Both the position numbers and the translations under genes were made by a program. This document shows, in pieces, positions 1,518 to 34,741 of a stretch of DNA of 64,000 nucleotides (positions within the stretch are counted from its first letter, which is position 1; the number at the start of each line of letters is the position of its first letter). The notes below the pieces were generated by a model. It saw nothing but the letters and a program-made list of their open reading frames with translations, searched no databases and was not told where the DNA came from. Origin of the DNA: Escherichia phage Ecwhy_1; the sequence record MH791411.1. One strand, given 5' to 3'.

Positions 1518-1553
1518 AATCAAATGAATGAACGAATTATATGGAGTCCAAAA

Positions 1554-7500: not shown

Positions 7501-10500
7501 TTCGTGATACAATCTATGTACCACCATTGCATTCCAGAACTAAATCTTGTACTGATATTGCTCGTATTATTAAAGAACCAGCACAGCTTAACATTCCTTG
7601 GTTTGCACCAATCAATGAAAGCTCGTTCATTCTAAGTAATATGCAATTTGAAGTCAACGATGACACAAGTATTTTAACTGTTTCTTATTACATGGATAAT
7701 ACTGAAGTTATTAAACATGACCAGTATCAATTATGTAAAGAAGGTGATAGCTATAACTTCAATCCATCAATCTGGACTTCTATGTGGAATTCTATGATTG
7801 GTCAAGAAACTACTGAATCAGGAACTGTTATTGATTTACTATATCCTTTAGTACCAAACGGTTTAGGTTCTAATAAGACTTGGTTCCAAGATGTAATTGA
7901 AGCTCGTAGAAACTTTGTAGAAAGTGCAAATAACTATTATCGCTCACAGAATATAACAACTAACACTGTTCTAATGGACGAAGTGTTTAATGTTAAAACT
8001 ACTGAAGTTAACCCGAATGAAGTATCATATCGTGTACTAACTTACAATAGTGAATTAGTCATTGCACCTGAAAGTGACAAGTTCAAAGAAAACGACGCAG
8101 TACTAGTAAGTACTAGTGGTGTATTACCTAACCCACTATCAACTAGCTCTGTATATTTTGTGCATATTGATGCTAATGGTTATATTCATCTAATGAATAG
8201 TCCATCAAGTGCTGGTAGTGTGGTTACCATTACATTGGAAAACCGTGGTGAAGGTCAACAGAAAATGATTAAACAATCAGACTATGTTGAAGCACTAGGA
8301 ACTTCATTGGACATGACCCAGTACTGGTCACTAGCAGATTGGTATGATATTGGCTACGATAAAAATACTGCATATACACAAGAATCCAGCCTAGAAGATG
8401 CAAACACTAAGAACTATCAAGTTGGTGACATTATCAGAATTACAGATGTTGATGGCATCTGGACATTGTACATTAAAGCACAATCACGTGATTCAGTTTA
8501 CTGGAAAGCAATTGGTCGTGAAAATAGTACAGTTGAATTGAATGATATGTTATACGCTGACTATACAGTTCGTGATGCTAATGGTTCGTTGAGTAATCGT
8601 GAGATTAACGTTCGTAAAGCACTAGCTTTATTGAAGAACTCATTCGACTTACATCAGAGTGAAATTGTGTTTGATATGGTTAAGTATGTTCACGTAGAAC
8701 AAAGCGTTGTTGATTGGGTATTCAAAACATCTTACATTTATATTGTAGGTTTAGAACAATCATTAGTACAGAACTATTCCAACGACAACTTGATTAATCA
8801 AATCGTTGAGTACTTTGAAGAAGTTAAACCATATAGAACTAAGATTCGTTCCCAGATTGAACAGAAAACTTCAGATGATGATTTAATTAAAGGTTTGTGT
8901 AATGATTTAGATCCTAATGGCTATATATTTGCAGATGGGACTTGGGTTAAAACGGAAAAAGACATTTGGGATTATGAATATGCTCAATTCAATGAGGTAA
9001 CTCAACGTTGGGAGCAAGTTGGTGAATTGCCAAGTGATTTCGTAACACCTAATCGCCGTTTCCAAGAAATTGATGTTATCATGCACTACGACAACACTCA
9101 ATGTAAACCAAATGATAATTTGGCAAGTGTTGATGTATTGGAAGAAGTGAATAAGAAATATCAATCTAATGCACAAGATGTTGTTAGTAATTTTGAATTA
9201 CAACGTTACAAATATACATTCCCAGAATACAGTGATGAAGATTTCGACCTATTGGTTGCTTATCAGATGCAATTGTATTACCCAGAATTGAACGTAACTC
9301 TAGGGATTGCTTACGGTGTTAACCAATGGTATGCAGACCATGCAGATGATTTGGTAGCAACCGCAGAATTCACAGAAACGTTGAATCGTGTATATAAAGA
9401 ATCAACACAAAATGAAATGTTTAATGACGTAAATCATTATGTTCAGTATAACACACTCTCTAACCGTTTGAAATTGTACACAGGTGCAGATGATGAAGTA
9501 ATTCATGATGAGGTTGGATGTGGATTTAGTGGGTTAACCTATGATGATAATCCAAGCACCAGACTACCGTTTGGTTATGCATCCAGTACTGATTATAACT
9601 TTGGTTACTTTGAAGTTAGTAGTGAGTTGTATAAAAAGTATGTTTCTTTAATTAAAGAAAACAATACTACTGCAACTGATGATGAAGTTAGAATTATACT
9701 TGAAGTTGAATATGGTGTTTATTCATATCGCCATGTAGATGAAGATGGAAATCAACGATTCTACAATGACGCAATTCATGTATTGTCTGGTATGCGTGGT
9801 TTGTATGACAAAGATGCTACCGACCATTATGAAAAGGCTGAAGAAATACTAAGTAGAATGCCTATTGATATTCATGCATTTACTATGATGCCACGAAAAT
9901 ATGTTTATGTTAATGTTAATGGTGTATACGAGAGTATCCCAGATGACCAAAGCATTGATGATTTCATGGAAGACAAATTCATAACTGACGGTCAACTAGT
10001 TCAATTGGCAGAAATAAATCTTGATGACTTACCTCTTGATAGAAATAACCCAATGTACAGTGATTATCAGCACATCCTAGATAGCATCACCGATGCTAAG
10101 TACTACGATGATATGAATGCATTTGATAACCTAGCACTTGAATCACAAACTTCCGAGTTAAAATGGGAAGTTGAAGGTGACGAAGTAGATCCGTACATAA
10201 TCGACATTTCTGATATTAACCCATCAGGAAGAAAGATTGGTCAGATTCGCTTCACAGTTGATGGTTATGGATTCAATAGTGTTTCACTAGTTCAATTGAG
10301 AGACAATAGTAGATATAAAACTGAAGGTATGGTTATCATCAACCCTTATAAAACAACAGAAGCAATTGTTAGTATTCCTTCTTACGCTAAGATTGAAAAT
10401 GATATTAGTAAATCATACAGTAAGTATGATGAAAAATACTTCTATAAAATTAAATCAATTGTTAGTGATACAGAAGCTGAAGTAATTGACAATACCCTAT

Positions 10501-20783: not shown

Positions 20784-22925
20784 ATGGCAGTTTTTTCCAA
20801 TTTAGAAGGGACCATGATGCCAACATTCAAGTTGGGTAAACGTGGTGCTTCTATTAATTTTGTAAACGATTCTGTCGCAATCAAAGACTTTTTAGGCGAA
20901 ACGTTCCTACCTGTTAAGGTGGGAACTCCTAATGACGATGATTCCGCAGTAAACGTTAGGTATCTTGAAGATAACCCAAATGCTTTATTTGGCGTACTTC
21001 CACCAACAAATGACATTGGTAAAAATAACAACACTTATTTTCAAGTTGATTCTGAGGGTATTGTTGATATCTTTGCAAAAACAAATGATGTTTGGGTAAA
21101 ATCATTATACATTAATAAAAATGTCCTTTCCAGTGTTAACGGTGCTGATTATATCGGACTTATTACTGGAGGAACACTTCAACAGGCACAGTTTTACATA
21201 ACTCCAGAAGAGTTTGGTGCAAAAGGTGATGGCATCACTGATGACACGGCGGCGGTTAACGCATGTGCAGTTTATGCTAAAGAACACAAAATCCAAATTC
21301 AAGCTGGTGGTAATTATCGTATCAGAACTGCTGTTTATTTGAATGATATTCAATGGTTTGGTGGTACAATCACTGGTAACGGTGGCACAATGGTATCGGT
21401 ACTGAATAGTACAATCCAACAAGCAACATTAACAGGATGTTATTTAAAATTCTTTGGTGGTAATGGTAAATTTTATTTTAATAAATTTATTAATATTACA
21501 AGTACTGCTGCATTTCTAATGCAAGGTATGACTGAATCAGGTACTATCGACTTCTGCTTTAATGAAATGACACAATGTAAGTACGGTGTTCTTCAGCAAG
21601 GCACTGGTGAGAAAATGACCGTTGGGCGTTATTCATACAACCACATCCATGATATATATGGTGATGCAATTGAATTGAACGTAGTCAACTCACATTACCC
21701 AGACGGATTTGTAATAGAAGGTAACTTGATTGAAAACGTAGATGGTACAAATGCACCAATTCCTCTTTCAAACTGGGGTATTGGTATCGGTGTTGCAGGT
21801 TCTGGTCCTTATGATGTGAATGCTGATGATTCACAATATGTAAAAAAATTCGTTATAAAAAATAACCGCTTGTACAATGTCCGTCAATGTATTCACGTTG
21901 AGTTGGGTAAAGACTTTAAAATTCTCAATAATGAAGTTTATCCATCAACGTTGGTATCAATTGGTACTGGTTTGACAACCGCTGGTGTAATTACTTATGG
22001 TTCTGTTGATTTTATTATTGATGGCCTATCTGGGCATCTATTAAATGATCCATCAGTAACTAACCGTATGGTTTCTATTAACTGGGGCGTAACATCTGGT
22101 AAATTTGCTGGTCCTCCACGAAACTTTAAATTATGTAATCTCCACATTCCTGAGTCGTCTATTATTGTGTATACTTCAGGCTCTGATAATTGGCTAAATA
22201 CTACTGAACTTTCTAATATTACATGTAGTAGAATTCAATGGCGTGGATTGCCGTCATCTTCCAAGTTTAATAATATCAGTACTAAAGAACTTGATGTTAT
22301 TGGACAACACCTTGCAACTGAAGGTGAAGGAGGGGGCTTATATACTCGCTCTAAATATACATATACCAACTGGACTAATTGTGTTGTTCAAGATGATTGT
22401 AACATATCAAAATATAGTTTCTCAAGAATGTATGTTGACCGTATTGACCAATCATCTAATAACTTTAAAGTAACCACTGCAATTGATGGAACGGGTCATC
22501 GTGGACCTGTAGTAATACCTGTAGTTGAACAGTATTACGTGCCTTATGATGTTTTTCCTGGTGGGAGATATTTCCCAGCAGGAACAATTATCCATAAACA
22601 ATCAGGTGGAAAATTTATTGTTACAGTAGGTGGTTCTTTCTTTGGTCGATATGACACAATTAGACAAACAGTTGCAGGACAAACTTATATCGAAGCATTG
22701 GGTGTATCATGGGGTGATAATCAATATGCTAAAGCTGCTGGAACCGAAATCCTAATCACAGGAGCAGGGGAAAATGGCGAAGATTTAAAAACATATATCA
22801 CTAGAGCAGTTTATGTTGTTAATAATGCGTATCGTATCGATATTGCCGATCCGATTGTTACTGCTACCGCAGCAGGGGCATTATTGAAAGCTGCTCAACC
22901 AATAACATATATCACCCTATCTTAA
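20784..22925 (+). CDS. Tailspike/depolymerase with pectate-lyase-like beta-helix domain
   Basis: Motif FGAKGDGITDDTAAVNACAVYA typical of the pectate-lyase/polygalacturonase-fold superfamily used by phage capsule depolymerases; the N-terminal ~40 aa are shared with the next gene. Confidence 0.7.
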   Translation: MAVFSNLEGTMMPTFKLGKRGASINFVNDSVAIKDFLGETFLPVKVGTPNDDDSAVNVRYLEDNPNALFGVLPPTNDIGKNNNTYFQVDSEGIVDIFAKTNDVWVKSLYINKNVLSSVNGADYIGLITGGTLQQAQFYITPEEFGAKGDGITDDTAAVNACAVYAKEHKIQIQAGGNYRIRTAVYLNDIQWFGGTITGNGGTMVSVLNSTIQQATLTGCYLKFFGGNGKFYFNKFINITSTAAFLMQGMTESGTIDFCFNEMTQCKYGVLQQGTGEKMTVGRYSYNHIHDIYGDAIELNVVNSHYPDGFVIEGNLIENVDGTNAPIPLSNWGIGIGVAGSGPYDVNADDSQYVKKFVIKNNRLYNVRQCIHVELGKDFKILNNEVYPSTLVSIGTGLTTAGVITYGSVDFIIDGLSGHLLNDPSVTNRMVSINWGVTSGKFAGPPRNFKLCNLHIPESSIIVYTSGSDNWLNTTELSNITCSRIQWRGLPSSSKFNNISTKELDVIGQHLATEGEGGGLYTRSKYTYTNWTNCVVQDDCNISKYSFSRMYVDRIDQSSNNFKVTTAIDGTGHRGPVVIPVVEQYYVPYDVFPGGRYFPAGTIIHKQSGGKFIVTVGGSFFGRYDTIRQTVAGQTYIEALGVSWGDNQYAKAAGTEILITGAGENGEDLKTYITRAVYVVNNAYRIDIADPIVTATAAGALLKAAQPITYITLS

Positions 22926-22939
22926 AGGAGATTATAAAA

Positions 22940-23839
22940 ATGGCAGTTTTTTCTAATTTAGAAGGAACCATGAAGAAGACCTTCATACTTGGTAAAAATG
23001 GTGCACAAATTGCCACTAATGGTAATGTTGTTCAAATCCAGAACTACACGGGTACACAACTTCTTCCTGTTTCAGCAGGTGACCCAACCGCAAATACACA
23101 CTTGGTTACATTGGGTTATTTGAATACACATAGCGGTGGTGGTGGTGGTTCCGGTATTTTACGTGGAACTATTGCACCATCTGAATCAATCGGTGTAGAT
23201 GGTGACGCTTACTTCTTAGTTGACAGTACTAATATTATTCAGATCTATATTAAAGACCTTGGTGTTTGGAAGCCTCTCCAAAGCACAACTCCAGGTACTG
23301 ATAGTTCTTACGTTACTACTGAAATCGTTCCTGTATCGGCATTTACATTAGTTCCTGGAACAACAGATCAATATACTTATTCTTTGCCTGAATCAGTACA
23401 TGGTCGTGGTCCAGATATTATGGTTCAGCTACAGGGTGATCCTGGTAACATCCCACTTGACACTGTATTCCAAACTAACGTCACTGTGAGTGGTATTGGT
23501 GACATTACGATTGATGTTATTGGTCAAATCACTGAATACACAAGTGTCAAAGTCAACATCATAGGAGCAACAACAATGACAGTACCTTATAGTAAATTAA
23601 TTAATATAGCAGATTGGGTAGCATCTGGTGATGATTACACCATTACTGTTCCAGCGTCAGAACATAACCAAACACCTGACAATTTGTATATTTCTATATA
23701 TTCAAATAAAACACCAGGCAGTACAGCAGCATCACCATTTGAACTGGTAATAACCGAAACTCAAATTGATGCAAGTGGTAATGTTACATTCACTTCTGAC
23801 GAAGCGTTTAGTGGTAAAATAGTAATTTCCGGTAAATAA
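22940..23839 (+). CDS. Receptor-binding (tail fibre/spike) protein sharing an N-terminal adaptor with the depolymerase
   Basis: N-terminus MAVFSNLEGTMKKTFILGKNGAQ nearly matches the 713-aa protein's MAVFSNLEGTMMPTFKLGKRGAS; strong RBS AAGGAG. Confidence 0.6.
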   Translation: MAVFSNLEGTMKKTFILGKNGAQIATNGNVVQIQNYTGTQLLPVSAGDPTANTHLVTLGYLNTHSGGGGGSGILRGTIAPSESIGVDGDAYFLVDSTNIIQIYIKDLGVWKPLQSTTPGTDSSYVTTEIVPVSAFTLVPGTTDQYTYSLPESVHGRGPDIMVQLQGDPGNIPLDTVFQTNVTVSGIGDITIDVIGQITEYTSVKVNIIGATTMTVPYSKLINIADWVASGDDYTITVPASEHNQTPDNLYISIYSNKTPGSTAASPFELVITETQIDASGNVTFTSDEAFSGKIVISGK

Positions 23840-23848
23840 AAAAAATAG

Positions 23849-23886
23849 TCCAGACTATGATTCATCTAGTCTGGATTTTTTATATC
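23849..23886 (+). terminator. Rho-independent terminator
   Basis: TCCAGACT-loop-AGTCTGGA hairpin (8-bp stem) followed by TTTTTT, after the stop at 23839. Confidence 0.6.
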
Positions 23887-23957: not shown

Positions 23958-26900
23958 ATGTACTCGATTAAAACAGATCTCGATATAACTGGTGGTGCAA
24001 CGGTTGCTAAAGATCTTCTTGTGAAAGGCGATGCAGTATTCAATAAAAATCTAACAGTTAATGGAACTGTAACTTTTGCTGACGCTGTATTCACTGCAAT
24101 TGAAGCAGAAACTGTAGACATTTCATCTACACTAGATGTTGCTGGTAAAGCATCATTGAATGGTGGAATTGAAGTTCATGGTAATTCCGTAATTGGTAAT
24201 TTGCCTGTTGGTTCTGATACTGCAACGATTAATTCTAATGCACAATTCCAAAGCCCAGTATCAATGGCAGGTAATCTAACACAAACCGCTGGCACTGCTG
24301 TACTAAAAGATACCCAAGTGGCATCAATGGATGTTCTTGGGACTTCTTCATTTAAAGGTAATATTACTGCTGAAACTGGCACTACCGCAGCATTTGACAA
24401 AATAACTGCAACTGATGCAACATTCACAAACACTGCAACTACTGATATCACATCAACTGGAACTGCAAACTTTAAAGATGTGAATATTTCCGGTACACTA
24501 GGTGGAACATTTAGTCTATCTGATGTTAATGCAACAACTCTAACTGTTTCTGGTTTAACCAGTCTACAAGGTGGTGTTACATTAGGTTCCAACATTACTG
24601 GTGTGAATAGTAGTGCAAACTTCCGTGATATTAAAATTGGTTCCAATGCTGCAAACACTAACTACCGTTTGAGCTTTAACTATTCTGCTCCAAGTCTTCG
24701 TCCAACTGTAATTCTACAGAACGAAATCCAATCAGAATTGATGTCTCCAGCTACCCTAAGTGTATTGAAAACTGCATCTTTTGGTGATTCGTCACTATCC
24801 ACTTTTGGTATTACTGGTAATGGTCTAAACAAACTAGATTACCTAACAGTATCTGGTAACTCTGTTCAAGATCCAACAACTCCACTATTACAAGTAACTT
24901 CAGGTAAAACTAAAGTTCATGATTTCGAAGTAACAGGAACTGCAACTATTCCTAACATTGAAAGTACTGGTACTGCTAATTTTAATAACATCAACGTATC
25001 TGGTACACTCGGTGGTACTTTCAGTCTTGATGATATTGAAGCAAACACACTAACTGTATCCGGTTTAACTAGCCTTGTTGGTGGTGTAACTTTAGGTGCT
25101 GATATTTCCGGTGCTAATAGTACTGCTAATTTTAAAGCAGTAAGTTTAGGACAAAACGCCGCCGATGCTAACGTTAAGTATGGTTTTGCTTATTCTGCCC
25201 CTGGTGCTCGCCCAACTGTAATTCTACAAAATGAAATTCAGTCTGAGCTAGTATCTCCAGCAGTACTTAATGTACAAAAAACTGCAACCTTTGGTGATGC
25301 ATCTCTTGCAACCTATGGTATCACAGGTAACGGTCTAAACAAACTAGATTATCTATCTATTACTGGTAATGGTACACAAAGTCCAGCTACCCCACAACTA
25401 CAAGTTGCTGGTAAATCAGTACTAAATGATGTTGAATTCACTGGTACTGTAACTGGTCTAACTGTTGATGTGAGTGGACAAGATCTAACTCCTAAATCAG
25501 TAGATGCTGCTGAAGCAATCAAAGGTCAAACCCTTGAATCAGTTGGTCAAACCACAGTAGGAACTAACCTACAAGTTGGTGGAACTGCTAATGTTGTTGG
25601 TGCACTAACTGGTACTGCTGCTACCTTCACTGGTGATGTAAGTGCTGCTAAAGGTACTTTCAGTGGTGATGTTAGCGTTACTGGTCAAACTGTAACTGTA
25701 CGTGATTTAGTAGTAACTGGTACAACTACTGGTGTAACTGCCCAAGCTGATGTTGATGGTCTTGATATCGCCCCAAATAAAGTTGATGTTACAACAACAC
25801 TATCTGTTGCTGGGGACACTACTTTAGCTGGCCTAACTGCTAGTTCAGTAACCAGTACTGGTGATGTTACTGGTGCGTCTGTATCTGGTAATACAGTAAC
25901 TGCGGCTGGGGCACTATCTGGTGGTTCTCTTGCAGTAACTGGTGCTGGTTCTATGGCTTCACTAACTGTTCCAAGTATTACTGGTGACACTACTTTTGCT
26001 AATAACGTAACTATTACTGGAACACTAACTCCGAGTAGTATAGATTTAAGCACTACTGATGTAAGTGCTGCTTCTTTAACAACTACTGGTAACGTAACTG
26101 TTGGTGGTTCTCTTGCAGTAACTGGTGCTATTGATTTGTCTGCTGCTGATGTAGTAACAAAATCAGTTAGTGCAACTAACCCAAGTACATTTGGTGTAAT
26201 TAATGCATCTTCTGTTGCCGCAACTGGTGACGTTTCAGGTGGCACACTAACTACTACTGGTGCAGCGAAAGTAGGAACACTAACTAGTACTGGTGTAGTA
26301 TCTGGTTCGCGTTTGTCTTCTGGTACTGCAACAATCACAACTTCTGTAACAGTTCCAACTTTACAAGCTGAAGCTGCTGGTGCTGGTACACTAAATCTAG
26401 CAAGTAATGTTGTCGCGGCAAAAGATCTAACTGTCACTGGTGTATTCAAACCTGAAGGTGGTCTTGATCTAACAACTGTTGATATTACTGCAAACTCACT
26501 AACTACTACTGCTGATGTTAATGTTGGTGGAAACTTAGTAGTTGATGGTACTTTTGACCTAAGTGCTGCTGATGTGTCTGTGAAATCTCTTGCAAGTGCA
26601 GAGACAATTACAAGTGCTGGTGTTATTACCGTTACCGATTCAACCAATACTAGTTCGTTACCTAAAATTACTTCAACTGATGCAACACTCTTTACAGTAA
26701 ATGCAGGTACTATTAATGCAACTGGTAACAGTGTACTACAAAGTGTATCAGCTACTCAAGTAACTGCTAATAGTGCTGAATTTTCTGGTGGTGGCCTTGG
26801 TCTTCAAGTTGATAATGATGCAAACGTTGGTGGTGCATTATCTGTTGGTGGCATTGCAACTGTTGGTTCTTTAACAACAACTGCTGCTTCTCTTAATATT

Positions 26901-28892
26901 GCAAAAAATACTGCAATCACTGGTGATTTAGCTGTATCTGGCACACTAACTGCTGGTTCAATCGACCTAAGCAATACTGATGTAACCGTTAAATCTCTTG
27001 ATTCACTAGGTAACGCACACATTGCTGGTAACCTAACTGTAGATGGTGCATTCGACTTAAGTGCAACTAACCTTGTAGCTGCAAGTCTAGCAAGTACTGG
27101 TTCTACTACTGTTGGAACTGATCTAGTACTAACAACTGGTGTTGTGACTGGTAGCCCAGCTATCTCTGGTAATACAACAATCGGTGGAACTCTTGGTGTA
27201 ACTGGTGCTGTTAACCTAACTGATATTGTTAATATCGGTAAGAAAGTAACAGTGAGTACTGGTGGTATTCAGGTAGTTGATGGTGGTATCAATACTAACA
27301 CAATTAACGTTTCTGGTGCTTCTACTCTAGCAGGAACTTCCATTACTGGAACTTTAGGTGTAACTGGTGCTTCTACTCTAGCAGGTGTATCTGCGACATC
27401 ACTAACAGTTTCTGGTGACAGTACTGTTCAGAAACTAACTGTCCAAGGTGAATTGATCCCACAAGGTGGTCTTGACCTAAGCGGTGCAGACATTACTGCT
27501 AATAGTCTAACTACTGCGACAACTATCAATGCAACTGGCCTAAGTACTCTAAGTGGTGGTGTTAGTACTTCTACTGTGACTGCATCTGGTCTAGCAACTG
27601 TTGGAAGTTTAACTTCTACTGCAAACGCATCAGTTGGTGGTAATTTGGGTGTAACTGGAACTCTAGGTGTTACTGGTGCAACTACTGTATCTTCACTAAC
27701 AGCTACTGGTGCAGTGAAAACTGGTACAACCCTAACTGTTGGTACTCCAGTTGGTGAACAACCTGAAACTGTACAGATCATTCCAGATACTTATATTGCT
27801 GGTAAATTGCGTGTAATCGGTGGTATTAACGCTGAAATCGACGTAAGTGGTCAAACACTAGAACCATATGCAATTGAAGCTGCTGCAACACTATCTGCTG
27901 TTGGTAACATTACTTCTGGTGCAACCATCGTTTCTAAAGCTGCAACAATTGGTGATGTTGGTTCACAAAACAACAACCTAACTGTTAATGGTAACGTAGT
28001 AACTAATGGTGACTTCACCGTTACTGGTGTACTAAATGCACAATTGAACCAAGCAGATTCCGATGTAGCTGTTAAGTCTTTGACTGCAACTAATAACGTT
28101 GCGGCTGGTACTTCAATCACTGCTGGAACATCCATCACTGCATCAGGCTTACTAAAAGGTAATTCGTTAGAAGTCACCACTACTGGTTCATTTGGTGGTG
28201 CAGTAACTATGTCAAGTGGTGCAAACATCACTGGTACTGTTGGTATCACTGCTGGTGACCTAACAGTAGGTGGTAATATCTCTGCAACTGGTACTGCTGG
28301 ATTCGGTGCAACAACCGTTTCTACCATTACAACATCAGGTTTAGCTACCCTTGCAAGTGCATCTGTAACTGGTGCTCTAACTGTAGGTGGTACATTAACT
28401 GCAAATGGTAACACTGTGATTGGTGATGCTGCTGCTGATACTTTAACTGTAAATGCAACATCTACATTTAAAGAGAACGCAACATTTGATAAGAACCTAA
28501 CAGTGACTGGTTCTATTAACACCACCACTGCAAACTTCACTACAAACAACATGGTAACTAAGAAATATTCTGTTATCCCTGCTAGTGTTACTGCTTCTAC
28601 TGCTGCTGTAGGTGGCACTTGGACACCAGATGGTACTACTAACGTATATCGCTTAACTCTTGACCAAAGTGTTACAATGGATTCCATCGCGGGTCTAATT
28701 GGTAGTGGTCAAGCATGTTCAGTGTATATCTATGTAACTCCATCTGTTGCTGATACTACTTTCACCTTCGGTGGTGCATACTCTGTAGTTTCTGGTACAG
28801 TAAGTGCTGTAGTTGGTCAAACAAGTATTATCCAAGTAATCTATGATGGTTTCAGTACTGTGTTTGATACCTTCGTTGCACAACGTGTATAA
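23958..28892 (+). CDS. Large repeat-rich fibrous protein (1,644 aa), paralog 1
   Basis: Thr/Gly/Val/Ser-rich with repeated modules (e.g. TxGxIDLSxxDV...KSL). N- and C-termini are conserved with the 1,899-aa paralog; RBS GGAGGG. Confidence 0.7.
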   Translation: MYSIKTDLDITGGATVAKDLLVKGDAVFNKNLTVNGTVTFADAVFTAIEAETVDISSTLDVAGKASLNGGIEVHGNSVIGNLPVGSDTATINSNAQFQSPVSMAGNLTQTAGTAVLKDTQVASMDVLGTSSFKGNITAETGTTAAFDKITATDATFTNTATTDITSTGTANFKDVNISGTLGGTFSLSDVNATTLTVSGLTSLQGGVTLGSNITGVNSSANFRDIKIGSNAANTNYRLSFNYSAPSLRPTVILQNEIQSELMSPATLSVLKTASFGDSSLSTFGITGNGLNKLDYLTVSGNSVQDPTTPLLQVTSGKTKVHDFEVTGTATIPNIESTGTANFNNINVSGTLGGTFSLDDIEANTLTVSGLTSLVGGVTLGADISGANSTANFKAVSLGQNAADANVKYGFAYSAPGARPTVILQNEIQSELVSPAVLNVQKTATFGDASLATYGITGNGLNKLDYLSITGNGTQSPATPQLQVAGKSVLNDVEFTGTVTGLTVDVSGQDLTPKSVDAAEAIKGQTLESVGQTTVGTNLQVGGTANVVGALTGTAATFTGDVSAAKGTFSGDVSVTGQTVTVRDLVVTGTTTGVTAQADVDGLDIAPNKVDVTTTLSVAGDTTLAGLTASSVTSTGDVTGASVSGNTVTAAGALSGGSLAVTGAGSMASLTVPSITGDTTFANNVTITGTLTPSSIDLSTTDVSAASLTTTGNVTVGGSLAVTGAIDLSAADVVTKSVSATNPSTFGVINASSVAATGDVSGGTLTTTGAAKVGTLTSTGVVSGSRLSSGTATITTSVTVPTLQAEAAGAGTLNLASNVVAAKDLTVTGVFKPEGGLDLTTVDITANSLTTTADVNVGGNLVVDGTFDLSAADVSVKSLASAETITSAGVITVTDSTNTSSLPKITSTDATLFTVNAGTINATGNSVLQSVSATQVTANSAEFSGGGLGLQVDNDANVGGALSVGGIATVGSLTTTAASLNIAKNTAITGDLAVSGTLTAGSIDLSNTDVTVKSLDSLGNAHIAGNLTVDGAFDLSATNLVAASLASTGSTTVGTDLVLTTGVVTGSPAISGNTTIGGTLGVTGAVNLTDIVNIGKKVTVSTGGIQVVDGGINTNTINVSGASTLAGTSITGTLGVTGASTLAGVSATSLTVSGDSTVQKLTVQGELIPQGGLDLSGADITANSLTTATTINATGLSTLSGGVSTSTVTASGLATVGSLTSTANASVGGNLGVTGTLGVTGATTVSSLTATGAVKTGTTLTVGTPVGEQPETVQIIPDTYIAGKLRVIGGINAEIDVSGQTLEPYAIEAAATLSAVGNITSGATIVSKAATIGDVGSQNNNLTVNGNVVTNGDFTVTGVLNAQLNQADSDVAVKSLTATNNVAAGTSITAGTSITASGLLKGNSLEVTTTGSFGGAVTMSSGANITGTVGITAGDLTVGGNISATGTAGFGATTVSTITTSGLATLASASVTGALTVGGTLTANGNTVIGDAAADTLTVNATSTFKENATFDKNLTVTGSINTTTANFTTNNMVTKKYSVIPASVTASTAAVGGTWTPDGTTNVYRLTLDQSVTMDSIAGLIGSGQACSVYIYVTPSVADTTFTFGGAYSVVSGTVSAVVGQTSIIQVIYDGFSTVFDTFVAQRV

Positions 28893-29041: not shown

Positions 29042-32000
29042 ATGTACTCGATTAAAACGGATCTTGATGTATCTGGTAATTCCACGGTAGGTAAGGATCT
29101 TTTGGTCAAAGGTAATGCAGTATTCAGTAATGACCTAACGGTTAATGGGGAAGTGTCTTTTGCTAACGCAGTATTCACTGCAATTACCGCTGGTTCTGTG
29201 AATGTCACAGGTGCATTGGATGTTGCTGGTAAGGCAACCTTATCCGGTGGTGCTGATGTTTCAGGTGCTGCGACATTTGCAGGAAACATTACTGCTGCTG
29301 GCGGCACAACTGCAAAATTTGATAACTTAGAAGCTAATTCAGGATCATTTGATTCTGTTGAATCAACTGATATTACTTCAACTGGCACAGCAACTTTTAA
29401 AGATGTAAACATTTCTGGTACACTTGGTGGTACTTTTAATCTTTCTGATATTAATGCTACAACACTTAATGTGTCTGGTGCTTCAGCACTAACTGGTTCA
29501 GTCACATTGGGTGCAAATATCACTGGTCTTGCAAGTACTGCAAACTTCCGTGATATTCGTATCGGGCCTAATGAAGCAGGTCAAGCATATAGACTAAACT
29601 TTGGTTACACCGTTCCAGGACAACGACCAACCGTTCTTCTACAGAACGAAGTTCAATCCGAACTAATGTCACCAGCTAAGTTGAATGTTCTACAAACTGC
29701 AACATTTGGTGATTCTTCACTTTCAACTTACGGTATTACAGGTAATGGTTTAAACAAATTAGATTATGTAACTATTTCTGGTAACGCAATTCAATCACCA
29801 ACCACTCCTTTACTTGAAGTAACTAAAGGTAAAACTAAAGTTGTTGATTTAGAAGTAACTGGTGTAGCAACTATTCCTAATATCGAAAGTTCTGGTACTG
29901 CAAACTTTAACAACATCAACGTATCTGGTACTATTGGTGGTAGTTTTGATTTAGATGATATCCAAGCAACAACATTATCAGTATCCGGTGCTTCAGCACT
30001 AACTGGTGCAGTTACATTGGGTGCAAACATCACTGGTCTAGCAAGTACTGCAACATTCAAAGCAATCAATTTGGGTCAAAATACCGCTGATGCTAACGTT
30101 AAGCTAGGTTTTGCATATACTGCACCTAGTGCACGTCCAACAGTCTTGTTAGCAAACGAAGTTCAATCTGAACTAATGTCTCCTGCTAAGTTGAACGTTC
30201 TACAAACTGCAACCTTCGGTTCTGCTGCACTATCTACCTATGGTATTACTGGTAATGGTCTAAACAAATTAGATTATCTAACAATTACTGGTAACGCAAC
30301 ACAAAACCCTGCTACTCCACAACTTCAAGTTGGTGGTAAAGCAATTCTTAATGATGTTGAATTTACAGGTACTGTAACTGGCCTAACTGTTGATGTGAGT
30401 GGACAAGATCTAACTCCTAAATCAGTAGTTGCTGCTGAAGCAATCAAAGGTCAAACTCTTGAATCAGTTGGTCAAACAACTGTAGGTTCATCTCTACAAG
30501 TTGGCGGTACTGCAACTGTTACTGGTGCATTATCTGCTGCCTCTGGTACTTTCAGTGGTGATGTTAGTGGTTCTAAAGGTATCTTCAGTGGTAGCGTATC
30601 CGGTACAAGTGCAACCTTTACTGGGGATGTTAGCGGTGATAACGCAACCTTTAGTGGCGATTTATCTGCTGTAGCTGGCACTTTCAGTGGTGATGTAACC
30701 GTAACTGGTCAAACAATCACTGTTAAAGACTTGGTAGTAACTGGAACTTCAACTGGTGTAACTGCAATCGCTGACGTTGACGGTCTTGATATTGCTCCAA
30801 ACAAAGTTGATGTTACAACAACTCTATCTGTTGCTGGTGAATCAACTCTTGCTGGTATTACAGCAACTTCAATCAATAGTACTGGTGCAATTGCAGGTAC
30901 TGCAATTTCTGGCTCTACTATTACAGCAACTGGTGAAATTTCTGGTGCATCATCTGTAGTAACTGGTCTTTCTAAATCTGGTAGCGTTGAAACTGGTGCT
31001 CTAAAGGCATCTTCTGTTGAAACTGCAATCATTAGCAACACTGCTGGTGTGTCAATAACAAACAACACTTCCATTGCAGGTAATCTATCTGTGACTGGAA
31101 CTGTTACCCCTGGTGCAATTGACCTAAGCACTACTGATATTGATGCTAAGTCCCTAACTACAACTGAAGGTGCTAACATTGGTGGTAACCTAGTTGTTGC
31201 AGGTACAGTTGATCTAAGTGCTGCTGACGTTGCTGTTAAATCTCTAACCAGTACTGGTGCAGTTATTAGTTCTGAAGGTACTGTAAGTAGTGTTCTACCT
31301 AAACTTTCCAGTACTGAAGCTAATATTACCACAGTAACTGCAACCACTGCAAATGCTACCACACTAAATGTAACTGGTACATCAACTCTAGCTGGTGTTA
31401 ACGCTTCTGGTGCTATTACTTCTGCAACTAACATTACCGCTACTGGTGTATTAAAAGGTGCATCTGTTGAAACTGCGTCAATCAGCAATGCTGATGGTGT
31501 AGCAATTAACAATAACACTACAATCACTGGTAATTTGGACGTATCTGGGACATTGACCCCTGGTGCAATTGACCTAAGCACTACTGATATTAGTTCTAAG
31601 TCTCTAACCACAACTGAAGGTGCTACAATTGGTGGCGATCTTGTGGTAGCAGGTACTGTTGACCTAAGTGCTGCTGATGTGTCTGTGAAATCTCTTGCAA
31701 GTGCAGAGACAATTACAAGTGCTGGTGTTATTACAGTTTCGGATACAGTGAATTCTAGCACTCTACCAAAACTAATTACTACTGATGCAACTATTGGTGC
31801 TGTCCATGCAGCTACTATTGAAACAACTGGTTCAAGTACACTAAAACAAGTATCTGCTACTGAAGTAACAGCTACAAGTATTGTACTAAATTCAGTTGGT
31901 GAAGGTTTACGTGTTGACAATAATGCAAACATTAATGGTATATTAAGTGTTAATAATATTACTTCTACCAATGATACTATTGCAATTGCGAAAAGTGCTG

Positions 32001-34741
32001 CTATTACTGGTGATCTGACCGTATCTGGAACTGTTACCCCTGGTGCAATTGACCTAAGTACTACCGATATTAGTTCTAAATCCCTAAGTACTACTGAAGG
32101 TGCTACAATTGGTGGTGACCTAGTTGTTAATGGTTCAATTGATTTAAGTTCTTCCAATGTTTCAGCAATTACCCTTGCTAGTTCTGGTAATACTACCGTT
32201 GGTGGTAACCTAGTACTAACAACTGGTGTTGTAACTGGCAGCCCATCTGTATCTGGCAACCTTTCAGTTGCAGGTACTGCGGCAGTAACTGGTGCAACTA
32301 CCCTAACTGATATCGTAAATATCGGTAAGAAAGTAACTGTAAGCACTGGTGGTATTCAAGTAGTTGCAGGTGGTATTAATACCGACGCTATATTAGTATC
32401 CGGTGATACAACTTTAAACAACACTACTGTAAACACTACCTTAAATGTAACTGGTCAAAGTACAGTAGCTGCACTAAGTGCTGCATCTTTGAATGTATCT
32501 GGTGATAGTACTGTTCAAAAACTAACAGTTGAAGGTGAATTGGTTCCACAAGGTGGTATCGACCTAACTGGTGCAGATATTTCTGCTAATAGTCTTGCAA
32601 CTGCTTCAACAATCACTGCAACTGGACTAAGCACACTAAGTGGTGGTGTAAGTACTACTAATGTTACTGCATCTGGTACAGTGAATGCTGGTAGTTTGGA
32701 TGTTACTAACAACGCAACCGTTGGTGGTAATTTGGGTGTAACTGGTTCATTAACTTCTGGTCCATTGAGTGTAACAGGTATTGCGAATATTACTGGTGTA
32801 ACAACTGTTGGTTCATTGGTTTCCGGTGCAGTATCTGGTAGTACTGGTACATTTAGTTCAACATTAGGTGTAACTGGTGCAGCTACATTTGACAATGACG
32901 TAACTGTTGAAGGTGTATTCACCCCAGCAGGTGGTTTAGACCTAACAACTTCTGATATTACGGCTAAGAGTTTGTCAGTATCTGAAACTATTCACTCTGA
33001 TGGTGCAGCTTCCTTTGGTGGTAACACAACAGTAGGTGGTACATTGGGTGTAACTGGTGCAGTAACTGCTCCATCGGCAACCCTAAGTGGTACTGGTACT
33101 GCACTAGCAGTAACTAATAATGCAACTATTGGTGGTACATTAGGTGTAACTGGTCAAGCATCACTTGGTTCTATAGTAACTTCTGGCGTTTCTGCAACAA
33201 GTGGCTCTTTCAGTACTACTCTTGGCGTTACTGGTGCTGCGACATTTGGTAACGATGTAACTGTAGTTGGAACACTAACTCCTGGTAGCTTAGATCTAAC
33301 TGGTGCAGATATCTCTGCTAAAACACTAACTCTATCTGAAACATTAAATGCAACAGGTAATACTACCCTTGGTGGAACATTAGGTGTAACTGGTTTAGCA
33401 ACAATTGGTGGAACACTAACGTCTGGTGCAGTAACTGCTCCATCTGCAACCTTGAATGGTTCAGGTACTGGTCTAGCAGTAACTAACAACGCAACCGTTG
33501 GTGGAACATTAGGTGTAGTTGGTCAAACAACACTAGGTTCTGTTAAAACTGGTGCAACTCTAACAGTTGGTACACCATTAGGTGAGCAGCCTGAAACTGT
33601 ACAGATTATGCCAGACACTTATATTGCTGGTAAACTACGTGTTGAAGGTGGTATTAACGCAGATATCGATGTTGGTGGACAAACACTAGAACCGTTTGCA
33701 GTAATAGCATCTGATTCTTTATCTTCTGCTGGTAATATTACTGCTGGTGCAGCAATTATTTCAAGTTCTGCAACAATTGGTGAAGTCGGTTCACAAAACA
33801 ACAACCTAATCGTTAATGGTAACGTTGTAAACAACGGTAACTTCACTGTTACTGGTGTACTAAATGCACAATTGAACCAAGCAGATTCCGATGTAGCTGT
33901 TAAGTCTTTGACTGCAACTAACAACGTATCTGCTGGAACCACATTAAGTGCAGGTACTGCAATTACTGCTGGTACTTCCATCACTGCAACTGGATTACTT
34001 AAAGGTAATACTTTAGAAGTTACTACTACTGGTTCATTTGGTGGTTTAGTAACTATGTCAAGTGGTGCAAATATCACTGGTGCAATGACCACTGCGGGTA
34101 ACATAACAGTGGGTGGCAATATCACTGCAACTGGTACTGCTGGATTCGCTGCAACAACCGTTTCTACAATTACAACAACAGGTTTGGCTACAATTGCAAG
34201 TGCATCCATTACTGGTAACGCAACAGTAGGTGGAACACTAACTGCGAATGGTAACGTAACATTAGGTGACGCAGCGGCAGACGTTCTAACCGTTAATGCA
34301 ACTTCATCATTTAAAGAAAATGCTGTGTTTGATAAGGCAGTAACAGTAACTGGTGCACTAACCACTACTAATGCTAACTTAACTACTACAACAGTAACTA
34401 CCAAAAAGTATGATGTAATCCCAACTCAAGTTACATCATCAGTAATTGCTCCAACCGGAACATGGACTCCAGATGGTACAAGTAACGTATACTTCATCAC
34501 TCTAGACCAAGATACCACGTTGGCTCCAATTACTGGCCTAATTGGTGGTGGTAAAGCTGCATCAGTATACATCTATGTTAAACAAGATACAACTGGTAAC
34601 AGAAACTTTACAACTGATGGTACTTATGCTGTTGTTGATGGTGAACTAAACAAAACTGCTGGTAGTGTGACCATTTACCAAGTAATTTATGATGGTGTAA
34701 GTCCAGTTACTGATTTGTTCATTGCACAACGTACTGCTTAA
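29042..34741 (+). CDS. Large repeat-rich fibrous protein (1,899 aa), paralog 2
   Basis: Same N-terminus (MYSIKTDLD...) and C-terminal domain as paralog 1; contains three tandem ~450-480-bp repeats (TPGAIDLSTTDI modules) at about 31.1, 31.55 and 32.03 kb; RBS AGGAGGGG. Confidence 0.7.
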   Translation: MYSIKTDLDVSGNSTVGKDLLVKGNAVFSNDLTVNGEVSFANAVFTAITAGSVNVTGALDVAGKATLSGGADVSGAATFAGNITAAGGTTAKFDNLEANSGSFDSVESTDITSTGTATFKDVNISGTLGGTFNLSDINATTLNVSGASALTGSVTLGANITGLASTANFRDIRIGPNEAGQAYRLNFGYTVPGQRPTVLLQNEVQSELMSPAKLNVLQTATFGDSSLSTYGITGNGLNKLDYVTISGNAIQSPTTPLLEVTKGKTKVVDLEVTGVATIPNIESSGTANFNNINVSGTIGGSFDLDDIQATTLSVSGASALTGAVTLGANITGLASTATFKAINLGQNTADANVKLGFAYTAPSARPTVLLANEVQSELMSPAKLNVLQTATFGSAALSTYGITGNGLNKLDYLTITGNATQNPATPQLQVGGKAILNDVEFTGTVTGLTVDVSGQDLTPKSVVAAEAIKGQTLESVGQTTVGSSLQVGGTATVTGALSAASGTFSGDVSGSKGIFSGSVSGTSATFTGDVSGDNATFSGDLSAVAGTFSGDVTVTGQTITVKDLVVTGTSTGVTAIADVDGLDIAPNKVDVTTTLSVAGESTLAGITATSINSTGAIAGTAISGSTITATGEISGASSVVTGLSKSGSVETGALKASSVETAIISNTAGVSITNNTSIAGNLSVTGTVTPGAIDLSTTDIDAKSLTTTEGANIGGNLVVAGTVDLSAADVAVKSLTSTGAVISSEGTVSSVLPKLSSTEANITTVTATTANATTLNVTGTSTLAGVNASGAITSATNITATGVLKGASVETASISNADGVAINNNTTITGNLDVSGTLTPGAIDLSTTDISSKSLTTTEGATIGGDLVVAGTVDLSAADVSVKSLASAETITSAGVITVSDTVNSSTLPKLITTDATIGAVHAATIETTGSSTLKQVSATEVTATSIVLNSVGEGLRVDNNANINGILSVNNITSTNDTIAIAKSAAITGDLTVSGTVTPGAIDLSTTDISSKSLSTTEGATIGGDLVVNGSIDLSSSNVSAITLASSGNTTVGGNLVLTTGVVTGSPSVSGNLSVAGTAAVTGATTLTDIVNIGKKVTVSTGGIQVVAGGINTDAILVSGDTTLNNTTVNTTLNVTGQSTVAALSAASLNVSGDSTVQKLTVEGELVPQGGIDLTGADISANSLATASTITATGLSTLSGGVSTTNVTASGTVNAGSLDVTNNATVGGNLGVTGSLTSGPLSVTGIANITGVTTVGSLVSGAVSGSTGTFSSTLGVTGAATFDNDVTVEGVFTPAGGLDLTTSDITAKSLSVSETIHSDGAASFGGNTTVGGTLGVTGAVTAPSATLSGTGTALAVTNNATIGGTLGVTGQASLGSIVTSGVSATSGSFSTTLGVTGAATFGNDVTVVGTLTPGSLDLTGADISAKTLTLSETLNATGNTTLGGTLGVTGLATIGGTLTSGAVTAPSATLNGSGTGLAVTNNATVGGTLGVVGQTTLGSVKTGATLTVGTPLGEQPETVQIMPDTYIAGKLRVEGGINADIDVGGQTLEPFAVIASDSLSSAGNITAGAAIISSSATIGEVGSQNNNLIVNGNVVNNGNFTVTGVLNAQLNQADSDVAVKSLTATNNVSAGTTLSAGTAITAGTSITATGLLKGNTLEVTTTGSFGGLVTMSSGANITGAMTTAGNITVGGNITATGTAGFAATTVSTITTTGLATIASASITGNATVGGTLTANGNVTLGDAAADVLTVNATSSFKENAVFDKAVTVTGALTTTNANLTTTTVTTKKYDVIPTQVTSSVIAPTGTWTPDGTSNVYFITLDQDTTLAPITGLIGGGKAASVYIYVKQDTTGNRNFTTDGTYAVVDGELNKTAGSVTIYQVIYDGVSPVTDLFIAQRTA

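What the first reader, a model, noticed from the sequence alone, without database searches (positions are those of the whole stretch)
20784..23839. Adjacent receptor-binding proteins share an N-terminal adaptor; the first is a pectate-lyase-fold depolymerase
The 713-aa and 299-aa proteins begin with near-identical ~25-aa segments (MAVFSNLEGTM...), also visible as DNA repeats at 20784 and 22940, and then diverge completely. The first carries the FGAKGDGITDDTAAV beta-helix signature of polysaccharide depolymerases. This looks like a cassette system with alternative tips on a common anchor, implying a capsule or polysaccharide receptor.
Basis: partly seen in the sequence, partly recalled or inferred. 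Interest (0 to 1): 0.6.

Follow-up and report, generated by a model that had tools for sequence, protein, structure and literature searches.

The report
Colanidase tailspike sharing a docking module
In this jumbo E. coli phage, an already-known enzyme that digests the bacterial slime polysaccharide colanic acid carries the same ~110-residue N-terminal attachment module as the small virion protein encoded next to it; this is an ordinary case of modular tail-protein evolution, although the module itself is uncharacterised.

Summary
ORFs 20784-22925 (713 aa) and 22940-23839 (299 aa) start with the same 11 residues and a 34-nt DNA repeat. The homology runs ~110 aa (41% identity, E 2e-19), not ~25 aa, then stops.

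The window is an Asteriusvirus jumbo coliphage, 99.9% identical to vB_Ec-M-J. Residues ~96-712 of the 713-aa protein match the solved Phi92 gp150 colanidase (PDB 6E0V, E 4e-233). [quoted passage not shown]

The 299-aa protein belongs to a single-copy virion structural family found in all RaK2-like jumbo phages; its CBB orthologue was detected in virions by mass spectrometry. Its C-terminus forms generic beta-sandwich domains, so it is not shown to bind a receptor.

The shared N-domain has two parts:
- A ~66-aa anchor, which other phages attach to unrelated bodies (beta-helix spikes, BNR proteins).
- A ~42-aa trimerising beta unit, which is widespread in fibre proteins.

The Phi92-type enzyme uses a different ~190-aa N-terminus, so this gene is a chimera with its junction near residue 105.

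There is no sign of a programmed switch, and no alternative cassette occupies this slot in relatives. Verdict: a known depolymerase on an undescribed but conventional anchor module; modest interest.

The parts
19642..20769 (+). Upstream co-oriented 'tail protein' (375 aa from ATG 19642; the ORF listing extends it to TTG 19606). It has a collagen-like G-X-Y stretch and sits immediately before the N-domain gene in all RaK2-like jumbo phages. It is a candidate partner, but that is not shown.
   Evidence: phrog_13565 'tail protein', E 8e-213, with the match starting at residue 13 of the 387-aa ORF. Weak Pfam Collagen hit. Synteny in vB_Ec-M-J, K64-1, GAP32, 121Q and CBB. CBB_228 was detected in virions by MS (PMC5259590).
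20784..22925 (+). Colanidase tailspike gene (713 aa), a chimera of the locus-specific N-domain and a Phi92 gp150-type body.
20784..20817 (+). Copy 1 of the 34-nt direct repeat; it encodes the invariant N-arm MAVFSNLEGTM.
20784..20981 (+). Anchor sub-module of the colanidase (aa 1-66): N-arm, three-strand beta-meander and a short helix.
   Evidence: Profile positions 1-66 match N-termini of unrelated proteins. All residues invariant across the family are retained. This gene's own N-domain was not modelled; sub-module boundaries are transferred from the AF2 model of the 299-aa paralogue's N-domain through alignment A2.
20982..21107 (+). Trimerising beta unit of the colanidase (aa 67-108). Unlike its paralogue, it has no glycine linker.
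21069..22922 (+). gp150-type neck plus right-handed beta-helix catalytic body plus C-terminal domain (aa 96-713). Recognisable identity starts around aa 107-117 (SLYINKNVLSS versus STSYVEKNLLSS).
   Evidence: PDB 6E0V, E 4e-233. 57% identity to phage muut gp032 residues 189-801. WcaM-related region at aa 262-460, E 3e-27. PF27800 WcaM is precomputed for this exact protein.
21213..21257 (+). FGAKGDGITDDTAAV motif (aa 144-158) at the start of the beta-helix.
   Evidence: Read directly from the sequence. Aligned to FGAIGDGVTDDTQAI of gp150. Pfam PF12708 match is below threshold (E 0.005).
22940..23839 (+). Gene for the 299-aa virion structural protein (phrog_10468; orthologue of GAP32 gp221, CBB_227 and 121Q gp572). 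It is the ancestral carrier of the N-domain.
   Evidence: CBB_227 detected in virions with 5 peptides and 32% coverage (PMC5259590).
22940..22973 (+). Copy 2 of the 34-nt direct repeat.
22940..23275 (+). N-domain of the 299-aa protein (aa 1-112): anchor 1-~64, glycine linker GGGGGSG, beta unit 72-112.
   Evidence: AF2 model with mean pLDDT 84.4; low confidence only for residues 1-10 and 61-70. Twelve of the 45 invariant columns of the family lie in the first 21 residues.
23276..23836 (+). C-terminal all-beta region (aa 113-299), modelled as beta-sandwich domains. Function is not established.
23847..23883 (+). Intrinsic-terminator-like hairpin plus U-run that closes the gene block.
   Evidence: RNA fold -15.9 kcal/mol, z -4.5, 0 of 200 shuffles as stable. 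The consensus scanner missed it.

Best explanation
Two virion proteins of an Asteriusvirus jumbo myophage use one homologous N-terminal attachment module.

The module has three parts: an invariant N-terminal arm (MAVFSNLEGTM), a small beta-meander with a helix (to ~aa 64), and a ~42-aa beta unit that probably nucleates trimer formation.

In the ancestral arrangement, found in all RaK2-like jumbo phages, a single ~290-aa structural protein carries the module, encoded between a collagen-like tail protein and the long fibre gene. In the Asteriusvirus lineage a second gene was created in front of it. This gene joins a copy of the module, at about residue 105, to the neck, beta-helix and C-terminal domain of a Phi92 gp150-type colanidase, replacing that enzyme's own ~190-aa anchor.

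The inferred result is a trimeric tailspike mounted on the baseplate or fibre apparatus through the same kind of socket as its neighbour. It hydrolyses colanic acid, the Rcs-induced slime capsule of E. coli and Salmonella, so the phage can reach the cell surface.

Shown here: the homologies, the chimeric junction, the modular distribution of the anchor, and the synteny. Taken from the literature: enzymatic activity of gp150 and the PBECO4 orthologue, and virion presence of the 299-aa family. Inferred: trimerisation by the beta unit, docking through the N-arm, and virion attachment of the colanidase.
For: Identity of the phage: 99.9% over 4.4 kb to vB_Ec-M-J (Asteriusvirus), with annotations 'colanidase tailspike' and 'virion structural protein'.

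Enzyme:
- PDB 6E0V Phi92 gp150, E 4e-233 over residues 96-712.
- 57% identity to the full-length Phi92-type protein of phage muut.
- 87% identity over the full length to the PBECO4 'putative colanic acid degrading protein'.
- PMC13450770 states that gp150 hydrolyses the beta-1,4 Glc-Fuc linkage of colanic acid.
- PMC10059673 cites Kim et al. 2015 for PBECO4 gp547.

Chimera: the muut protein has an unrelated 188-aa N-terminus, and paralogue similarity ends at residue ~104-110.

Module:
- An HMM of the N-domain against 1.84 billion representative proteins gives 417 hits.
- Positions 1-66 sit at the N-terminus of proteins of 99-1366 aa. These include a KP32gp37-like spike with an S74 chaperone, a Beta_helix spike and BNR-repeat proteins.
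- Two such spikes lie on one contig of another phage.
- Positions 66-112 recur as 5-14 tandem copies in fibre-like proteins.

Structure: AF2 pLDDT 84. The most conserved segment, residues 1-10, is the only poorly modelled part besides the linker, as expected for a partner-bound arm. The beta unit resembles collagen XV/XVIII trimerisation domains and viral collagen-like proteins.

Ancestral single-copy state and synteny.

Virion presence of the orthologue CBB_227.
Against: - No direct evidence places the colanidase in the virion. The phAPEC6 virion proteome lists gp253 and gp256 but not gp254 or gp255, although those two genes are not even annotated in its GenBank record.
- The docking partner is unknown. 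No neighbour of the anchor-bearing spikes in the other phage contig is homologous to the window's tail genes.
- The colanidase anchor is only 41-47% identical to its neighbour's. It groups with other spikes' anchors in a low-resolution 64-residue NJ tree. The two could therefore bind different sites.
- I read no primary paper on PBECO4 enzyme activity; PMC4292498 is not held.
Confidence: 0.72

Rival explanations
1. The colanidase is a soluble enzyme released at lysis rather than mounted on the virion. On this reading the shared N-domain serves only as a trimerisation or folding nucleus inherited by duplication, not as a docking adaptor.
For: The beta unit resembles pure trimerisation domains. 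There is no MS evidence for the colanidase in phAPEC6 virions. 121Q annotates gp572 and gp574 as structural, but labels gp573 only as an enzyme.
Against: All residues of the N-arm and anchor that are invariant in the virion-borne paralogue family are retained in the colanidase, although a soluble enzyme would not need them. The same 66-aa anchor heads obvious tailspikes elsewhere. Phi92-type homologues carry a tailspike anchor in the equivalent position. The gene lies inside the tail-fibre operon. phAPEC6 gp254 and gp255 were not annotated, so their absence from the MS table says nothing.
Confidence: 0.13
2. The shared N-terminus is only the decaying remnant of a recent tandem duplication of the 299-aa gene, into which a depolymerase fragment happened to insert. 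It has no modular or adaptor significance.
For: The genes are adjacent and co-oriented. The similarity covers both sub-modules in the same order.
Against: The arrangement is old and maintained. It is present with intact reading frames in lineages whose 299-aa proteins are only 63-80% identical. In the anchor tree the colanidase anchors do not nest within the Asteriusvirus 299-aa clade. The anchor occurs on many unrelated bodies. RaK2 and K64-1 keep the N-domain alone as a 115-aa protein.
Confidence: 0.07
3. This is a programmed alternative-tip system: the phage switches between the two tips by DNA inversion, or by frameshifting in a homopolymer tract.
For: An A7 tract lies inside the colanidase gene (21842-21848). 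It is A8 in vB_Ec-M-J, which splits the gene there. JNE01 has a truncated 141-aa version. An 18-nt inverted repeat brackets the region and is seen in only 1 of 100 shuffles.
Against: Both genes are on the same strand, each with its own start and ribosome-binding site. The inverted repeat lies inside coding sequence and is not conserved in 121Q or PBECO4. A single extra A in a homopolymer of a deposited genome could equally be a sequencing error. No recombinase is annotated in the 28 kb around the orthologous locus of vB_Ec-M-J.
Confidence: 0.04

Closest known systems
Phi92 gp150 colanidase tailspike (PDB 6E0V/6E0W; phrog_6117; Justusliebigvirus)
   Same: The neck, right-handed beta-helix and C-terminal domain are collinear from residue ~96-108 to the end, at 57% identity. 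They share the FGAxGDGxTDDT start motif and relatedness to host WcaM.
   Different: The N-terminal anchor is entirely different: ~188 aa starting MANFPTYPATT in the Phi92 type, against the 105-aa MAVFSNLEGTM module here. The virion context also differs: a 148-kb myophage versus a ~380-kb jumbo phage.
PBECO4 colanic-acid-degrading enzyme (ORF547, AGC35227; Kim et al. 2015 AEM 81:900, cited in PMC10059673)
   Same: An orthologue: 713 aa, 87% identity over the full length including the N-domain, at the same locus.
   Different: Only sequence divergence, with the N-domain at 77%. As far as I could read, the literature treats it as an enzyme and does not mention that its N-terminus is shared with the neighbouring structural protein.
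GAP32 gp221 / CBB_227 / 121Q gp572 virion structural protein family (phrog_10468)
   Same: The 299-aa protein is a full-length member, with 45-87% identity across 66 clusters, and occupies the same syntenic slot.
   Different: None of note. In Alcyoneusvirus (RaK2 ORF061, K64-1 gp067) the family is reduced to the 115-aa N-domain.
Modular receptor-binding proteins with conserved N-terminal anchors and exchangeable C-terminal depolymerase domains (scheme of Latka et al. 2019, PMC6872550; RaK2 gp526-534, PMC10253068)
   Same: A conserved N-terminal module is shared by paralogues in one genome and recombined with unrelated enzymatic bodies across phages.
   Different: This anchor family has no Pfam model and no solved structure. 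It is not the N-domain of the RaK2 long-fibre proteins: RaK2 has only one tblastn match, ORF061. No branching or adaptor partner has been identified.

Membership tests
Phi92 gp150-type colanidase tailspike | Collinear sequence homology to the gp150 neck, beta-helix and C-terminal domain | tested here: met
   phmmer E 4e-233 over query residues 96-712 and chain residues 11-623 of 6E0V. 57% identity to muut gp032. phrog_6117 scores 840 bits.
Phi92 gp150-type colanidase tailspike | Right-handed parallel beta-helix fold | tested here: met
   Inferred from near-full-length 57% identity to a crystal-structure sequence. No independent structure prediction of this protein was run. The Pfam Pect-lyase_RHGA_epim hit is only sub-threshold.
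Phi92 gp150-type colanidase tailspike | Hydrolysis of colanic acid (beta-1,4 Glc-Fuc linkage) | not testable with these tools
   Reported for gp150 (PMC13450770). For the 87%-identical PBECO4 protein, reported by Kim et al. 2015 as cited in PMC10059673; the primary paper is not held.
Phi92 gp150-type colanidase tailspike | gp150-type N-terminal virion-attachment region (~190 aa) | tested here: not met
   There is no similarity before query residue 96 or muut residue 189. That region is replaced by the MAVFSNLEGTM module.
phrog_10468 virion structural protein (GAP32 gp221 / CBB_227) | Full-length homology and length of ~285-300 aa | tested here: met
   phrog_10468 E 2.6e-92. 66 clusters at 100% coverage. 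Alignment A1 has 45 invariant columns.
phrog_10468 virion structural protein (GAP32 gp221 / CBB_227) | Syntenic position between the phrog_13565 tail protein and the long fibre gene | tested here: met
   In Asteriusvirus the colanidase gene is interposed.
phrog_10468 virion structural protein (GAP32 gp221 / CBB_227) | Physical presence in virions | not testable with these tools
   CBB_227 was detected by ESI-MS/MS with 5 peptides and 32% coverage (PMC5259590). No data exist for this phage.
Modular RBP system with a shared N-terminal anchor | Paralogues in one genome share the N-terminus and diverge completely afterwards | tested here: met
   41% identity over 104-110 aa, E 2e-19, and nothing beyond.
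Modular RBP system with a shared N-terminal anchor | The same anchor is found on unrelated C-terminal bodies in other phages | tested here: met
   Profile positions 1-66 sit at the N-terminus of P0090, P0099, P0135, P0142, P0173, P0215 and others, which carry different Pfam content.
Modular RBP system with a shared N-terminal anchor | The anchor binds a defined baseplate or adaptor partner | not testable with these tools
   No multimer prediction or structure is available. No conserved partner was found next to the anchor-bearing genes of the other contig.
Modular RBP system with a shared N-terminal anchor | Exchange of the distal module at this locus among close relatives (cassette swapping) | tested here: not met
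   All two-copy genomes carry the colanidase here. The only long protein matching the full 1-112 profile is another colanidase, P0078.
Programmed tail-fibre switching (Mu G / P1 C invertible segments) | Conserved inverted repeats flanking the alternative gene parts, plus a site-specific invertase | tested here: not met
   Only one 18-nt inverted repeat was found. It lies inside coding regions and is not conserved in 121Q or PBECO4. No recombinase is annotated in the 28 kb around the orthologous locus of vB_Ec-M-J.

The most novel reading that the evidence does not exclude
The MAxFSNxxGT anchor is an undescribed, widely distributed plug domain. Its invariant 10-residue arm inserts into a conserved socket of myophage baseplates or fibre networks. 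One socket type could then accept interchangeable heads: a colanidase, other beta-helix depolymerases, BNR-propeller proteins, Ig-like domains, or nothing at all, as in the 115-aa RaK2/K64-1 protein. On this reading the Asteriusvirus pair would be a natural example of two different heads competing for, or sharing, that socket. It would also offer a ready-made handle for retargeting jumbo phages.
Probability: 0.3. Interest if true: 0.5.

Novelty: new member of a known kind. Interest (0 to 1): 0.3.

Why it matters
Colanic-acid overproduction (mucoidy) is a common route to phage resistance in E. coli, so a virion-mounted colanidase is relevant to host range and to therapeutic cocktails. That enzyme, however, is already known in this phage genus.

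What this analysis adds is small:
- It locates the chimeric junction, near residue 105.
- It shows that the attachment module is shared with a conserved structural protein.
- It shows that the ~66-aa anchor and the ~42-aa trimerising beta unit are separable and widely reused, yet absent from Pfam and the PDB.

This gives a concrete boundary for engineering new heads onto Asteriusvirus particles. It also supplies an argument, not a proof, that the colanidase is virion-borne.

Tried and rejected
- The search for homologous proteins with the 110-aa colanidase N-domain returned a single hit because of the word prefilter. The exhaustive profile search replaced it.
- The search for related loci with the N-domain profile recovered only orthologues of the 299-aa gene in jumbo phages. 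With P0090 it found only C-terminal chaperone matches, and with P0135 nothing.
- tblastn of the window's tail and baseplate proteins against the contigs carrying P0090, P0099 and P0135 found only the anchor itself, so no conserved partner was identified.
- A profile search of PDB sequences with the N-domain gave nothing significant. The best hit was E 0.038, to designed beta-propeller blades, plus weak phage hyaluronidase motif matches.
- PF27114 'Phage_tail_beta', precomputed for P0090 and P0099, was considered as a name for the anchor. I rejected it because the window proteins carry no such hit, and the local Pfam copy reported no PF27114 hit for these proteins.
- The invertible-segment idea was rejected.
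- The consensus terminator scan missed the hairpin after the 299-aa gene; folding confirmed it.
- The primary PBECO4 enzyme paper could not be read.
- No structure prediction of the full 713-aa protein was run. Both jobs went to the 299-aa protein and the N-domain, because the 6E0V match already settles the fold.
Full report
**1. Observation**

The two ORFs are exactly as described: 20784-22925 (713 aa) and 22940-23839 (299 aa), both on the + strand and 14 nt apart. Each is preceded by a Shine-Dalgarno sequence.

They share MAVFSNLEGTM at the start, and 19 of the first 25 residues are identical. The underlying DNA repeat is 34 nt with two synonymous differences. A degenerate pattern allowing up to three mismatches finds only these two copies in the window, with none in 100 shuffles. 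DNA identity drops to background after ~35 nt.

The protein similarity is longer than reported. BLASTP aligns residues 1-104 with 1-110 at 41% identity, E 2e-19, and nothing after that. No third copy of the domain exists in any frame of the window. The FGAKGDGITDDTAAV motif is at residues 144-158.

**2. Source of the window**

The 4.4 kb around the finding is 99.9% identical to Escherichia phage vB_Ec-M-J and 98-99.6% identical to eight other Asteriusvirus jumbo coliphages. It is ~79% identical to the 121Q/PBECO4 group.

In those records the genes are annotated as tail or tail-fibre protein, then colanidase tailspike or colanic acid degradation, then virion structural protein, then long tail fibre. 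A stable hairpin followed by a U-run at 23847-23883 closes the block.

**3. The 713-aa protein**

- Residues 96-712 match the sequence of the crystal structure of Phi92 gp150 (6E0V/6E0W) with E 4e-233.
- Against the full-length Phi92-type protein of phage muut, identity is 57% over 617 residues.
- phrog_6117 'colanic acid degradation' scores 840 bits.
- The precomputed Pfam family is PF27800 WcaM, and the NCBIfam WcaM models match residues 262-460 at E 3e-27.
- The PBECO4 orthologue is 87% identical over all 713 residues.
- PMC13450770 states that gp150 hydrolyses the beta-1,4 glucose-fucose bond of colanic acid.
- PMC10059673 cites Kim et al. 2015 for PBECO4 gp547. I could not read that primary paper.

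The beta-helix depolymerase reading is therefore correct, and the substrate can be named. It is also already known.

tblastn finds this catalytic body in 254 phage records of many genera and genome sizes. It is a widely exchanged module.

**4. The 299-aa protein**

It is a full-length member of phrog_10468 (E 3e-92). Sixty-six 90%-identity clusters of 203-309 aa were found, all but one covering the query completely.

tblastn with the colanidase N-domain shows two copies in Asteriusvirus-like phages of Escherichia and Salmonella. It shows one copy in Klebsiella, Cronobacter, Erwinia, Yersinia, Serratia, Pectobacterium and Xanthomonas jumbo phages. In GAP32, CBB, K64-1 and RaK2 the single copy sits directly after the phrog_13565 tail protein. 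The 299-aa type is therefore ancestral, and the colanidase gene is an insertion specific to the Asteriusvirus lineage. A more divergent metagenomic relative has the same three-gene order.

The CBB orthologue was detected in virions by mass spectrometry (PMC5259590). In RaK2 and K64-1 the protein is only 115 aa, which is the N-domain alone.

**5. Anatomy of the shared module**

In the 39-sequence alignment, 12 of the 45 invariant columns lie in the first 21 residues. When the colanidase N-domains are added, M1, F4, S5, N6, L7, G9, T10, F15, G18, K19, G21, Y60, G76, P80, G85, Y91, K105, W110 and K111 remain invariant.

A profile of the domain was searched exhaustively against 1.84 billion representative proteins and gave 417 hits. 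These split the domain in two.

- *Positions 1-66* occur at the extreme N-terminus of proteins of 99 to 1366 aa with unrelated bodies. Examples are a KP32gp37-like spike with an S74 chaperone domain (P0090), a Beta_helix protein (P0099) and ~1200-aa BNR-repeat proteins. P0090 and P0099 lie 8.5 kb apart on one ~120-kb contig, which gives a second phage with two spikes on this anchor.
- *Positions 66-112* recur as 5-14 tandem copies inside hundreds of fibre-like proteins.

An AlphaFold2 model of the N-domain, built from 50 sequences, has mean pLDDT 84. It shows three short strands and a helix up to residue 64, a low-confidence glycine linker, and a four-strand unit at 73-112. Residues 1-10 are the most conserved segment yet are poorly modelled, as expected for an arm that becomes ordered on a partner.

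No Pfam model and no PDB sequence covers the anchor. phrog_4302, of unknown function, matches it weakly.

**6. The chimera**

The muut gp150-type protein has 188 unrelated N-terminal residues (MANFPTYPATT...) before the collinear region begins. In the window protein, similarity to the 299-aa paralogue ends at W104/K106, and similarity to gp150 becomes recognisable at SLYINKNVLSS (107-117). The two homologies abut without overlap.

A neighbour-joining tree of the first 64 residues places the colanidase anchors with those of P0090 and P0099 rather than inside the Asteriusvirus 299-aa clade. With so few sites this argues only against a recent tandem duplication. It does not decide between an old duplication and acquisition from another phage.

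**7. What the evidence does not support**

- No relative carries a different head in this slot.
- Nothing suggests programmed switching. The one 18-nt inverted repeat lies within coding sequence and is not conserved.
- Virion attachment of the colanidase is inferred from the retained anchor residues, from the operon context, and from analogy with other spikes. The phAPEC6 proteome neither confirms nor denies it, because gp254 and gp255 are missing from that record.

**8. Verdict**

It overstates the 'alternative tips' and 'receptor-binding' claims for the second protein.

The enzyme is already known. The shared anchor is a new, modestly interesting detail within the well-established principle of modular phage receptor-binding proteins.

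Noticed in passing
window 21842-21848: An A7 homopolymer lies inside the colanidase gene. vB_Ec-M-J has A8 here, which is why its record annotates two 'colanidase tailspike' CDSs. Phage JNE01 has a 141-aa truncated version with an out-of-frame tail, and the phAPEC6 GenBank record has no CDS for gp254 or gp255. This could be recurrent inactivation in lab stocks or sequencing and annotation error.
   Followed up: partly
window 20784-20816 and 22940-22972; loci L002-L023 at the orthologous starts: The first 11 codons (ATGGCAGTTTTTTCTAATTTAGAAGGAACCATG) are almost invariant at the nucleotide level, synonymous sites included. This holds across genera whose proteins are only ~50% identical overall. 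It may reflect codon bias plus strong protein constraint, or a nucleotide-level constraint on the translation start region.
   Followed up: partly
window 20663-20680 and 23527-23544: An 18-nt inverted repeat (17/18 complementary) has one arm in the 3' end of the tail-protein gene and the other inside the 299-aa gene. It is seen in only 1 of 100 shuffles but is not conserved in 121Q, PBECO4 or phAPEC6, so it is probably chance.
   Followed up: yes
L002 7001-7348 (K64-1 gp067); L005 4001-4348 (RaK2 ORF061): In Alcyoneusvirus the orthologue of the 299-aa protein is only 115 aa: the N-domain with no distal part. A 510-aa structural protein follows it instead of the long fibre gene.
   Followed up: partly
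window 19606-20769: The mechanical ORF starts at TTG 19606 (387 aa). The PHROG match and all annotated relatives start at ATG 19642 (375 aa). The protein contains a G-X-Y collagen-like stretch (GKDGEEGKQGEQGIQGEPGKD). By eye it also has internal repeats that look like the ~42-aa beta unit, but the profile did not pick them up.
   Followed up: partly
L027 10001-12343 and 18571-20688 (contig logan:SRR18476386_53): An unrelated ~120-kb phage contig carries two tailspikes with the same 66-aa anchor, separated by three large genes. One is a 780-aa KP32gp37-like protein with an S74 chaperone domain; the other is a 705-aa Beta_helix protein. This is an independent example of anchor sharing.
   Followed up: partly
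profile positions 66-112 of alignment A2; e.g. P0076 residues ~180-430: A ~42-aa unit (G..P....G..GD.Y.......i..iy.K....W) occurs in 5-14 tandem copies in hundreds of fibre-like, collagen-like and LPXTG proteins. The Pfam scan of two example proteins returned no model covering it. Its predicted fold resembles the collagen XV/XVIII trimerisation domain.
   Followed up: partly
L031 (GCA_902499925.1 contig CABVNH010000004.1, 355,566 bp): Contigs the size of a whole phage genome, carrying these exact genes, sit in assemblies labelled as E. coli. The 299-aa cluster representative is named as an E. coli hypothetical protein. This suggests carrier-state or contaminating jumbo phage in bacterial sequencing projects.
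   Followed up: no
window 23958-28892 and 29042-34741: Two very long (1644 and 1899 aa), highly repetitive T/G/S/A/V-rich fibre genes follow the block (phrog_4549). They are rich in internal direct repeats. They also generate long spurious ORFs on the opposite strand, for example 25685-26647 and 30709-32346.
   Followed up: no
window 1524-11525: A single 3333-aa ORF, annotated as a virion structural protein in vB_Ec-M-J, lies upstream of a ClpA-like ATPase gene on the opposite strand. It was not examined.
   Followed up: no
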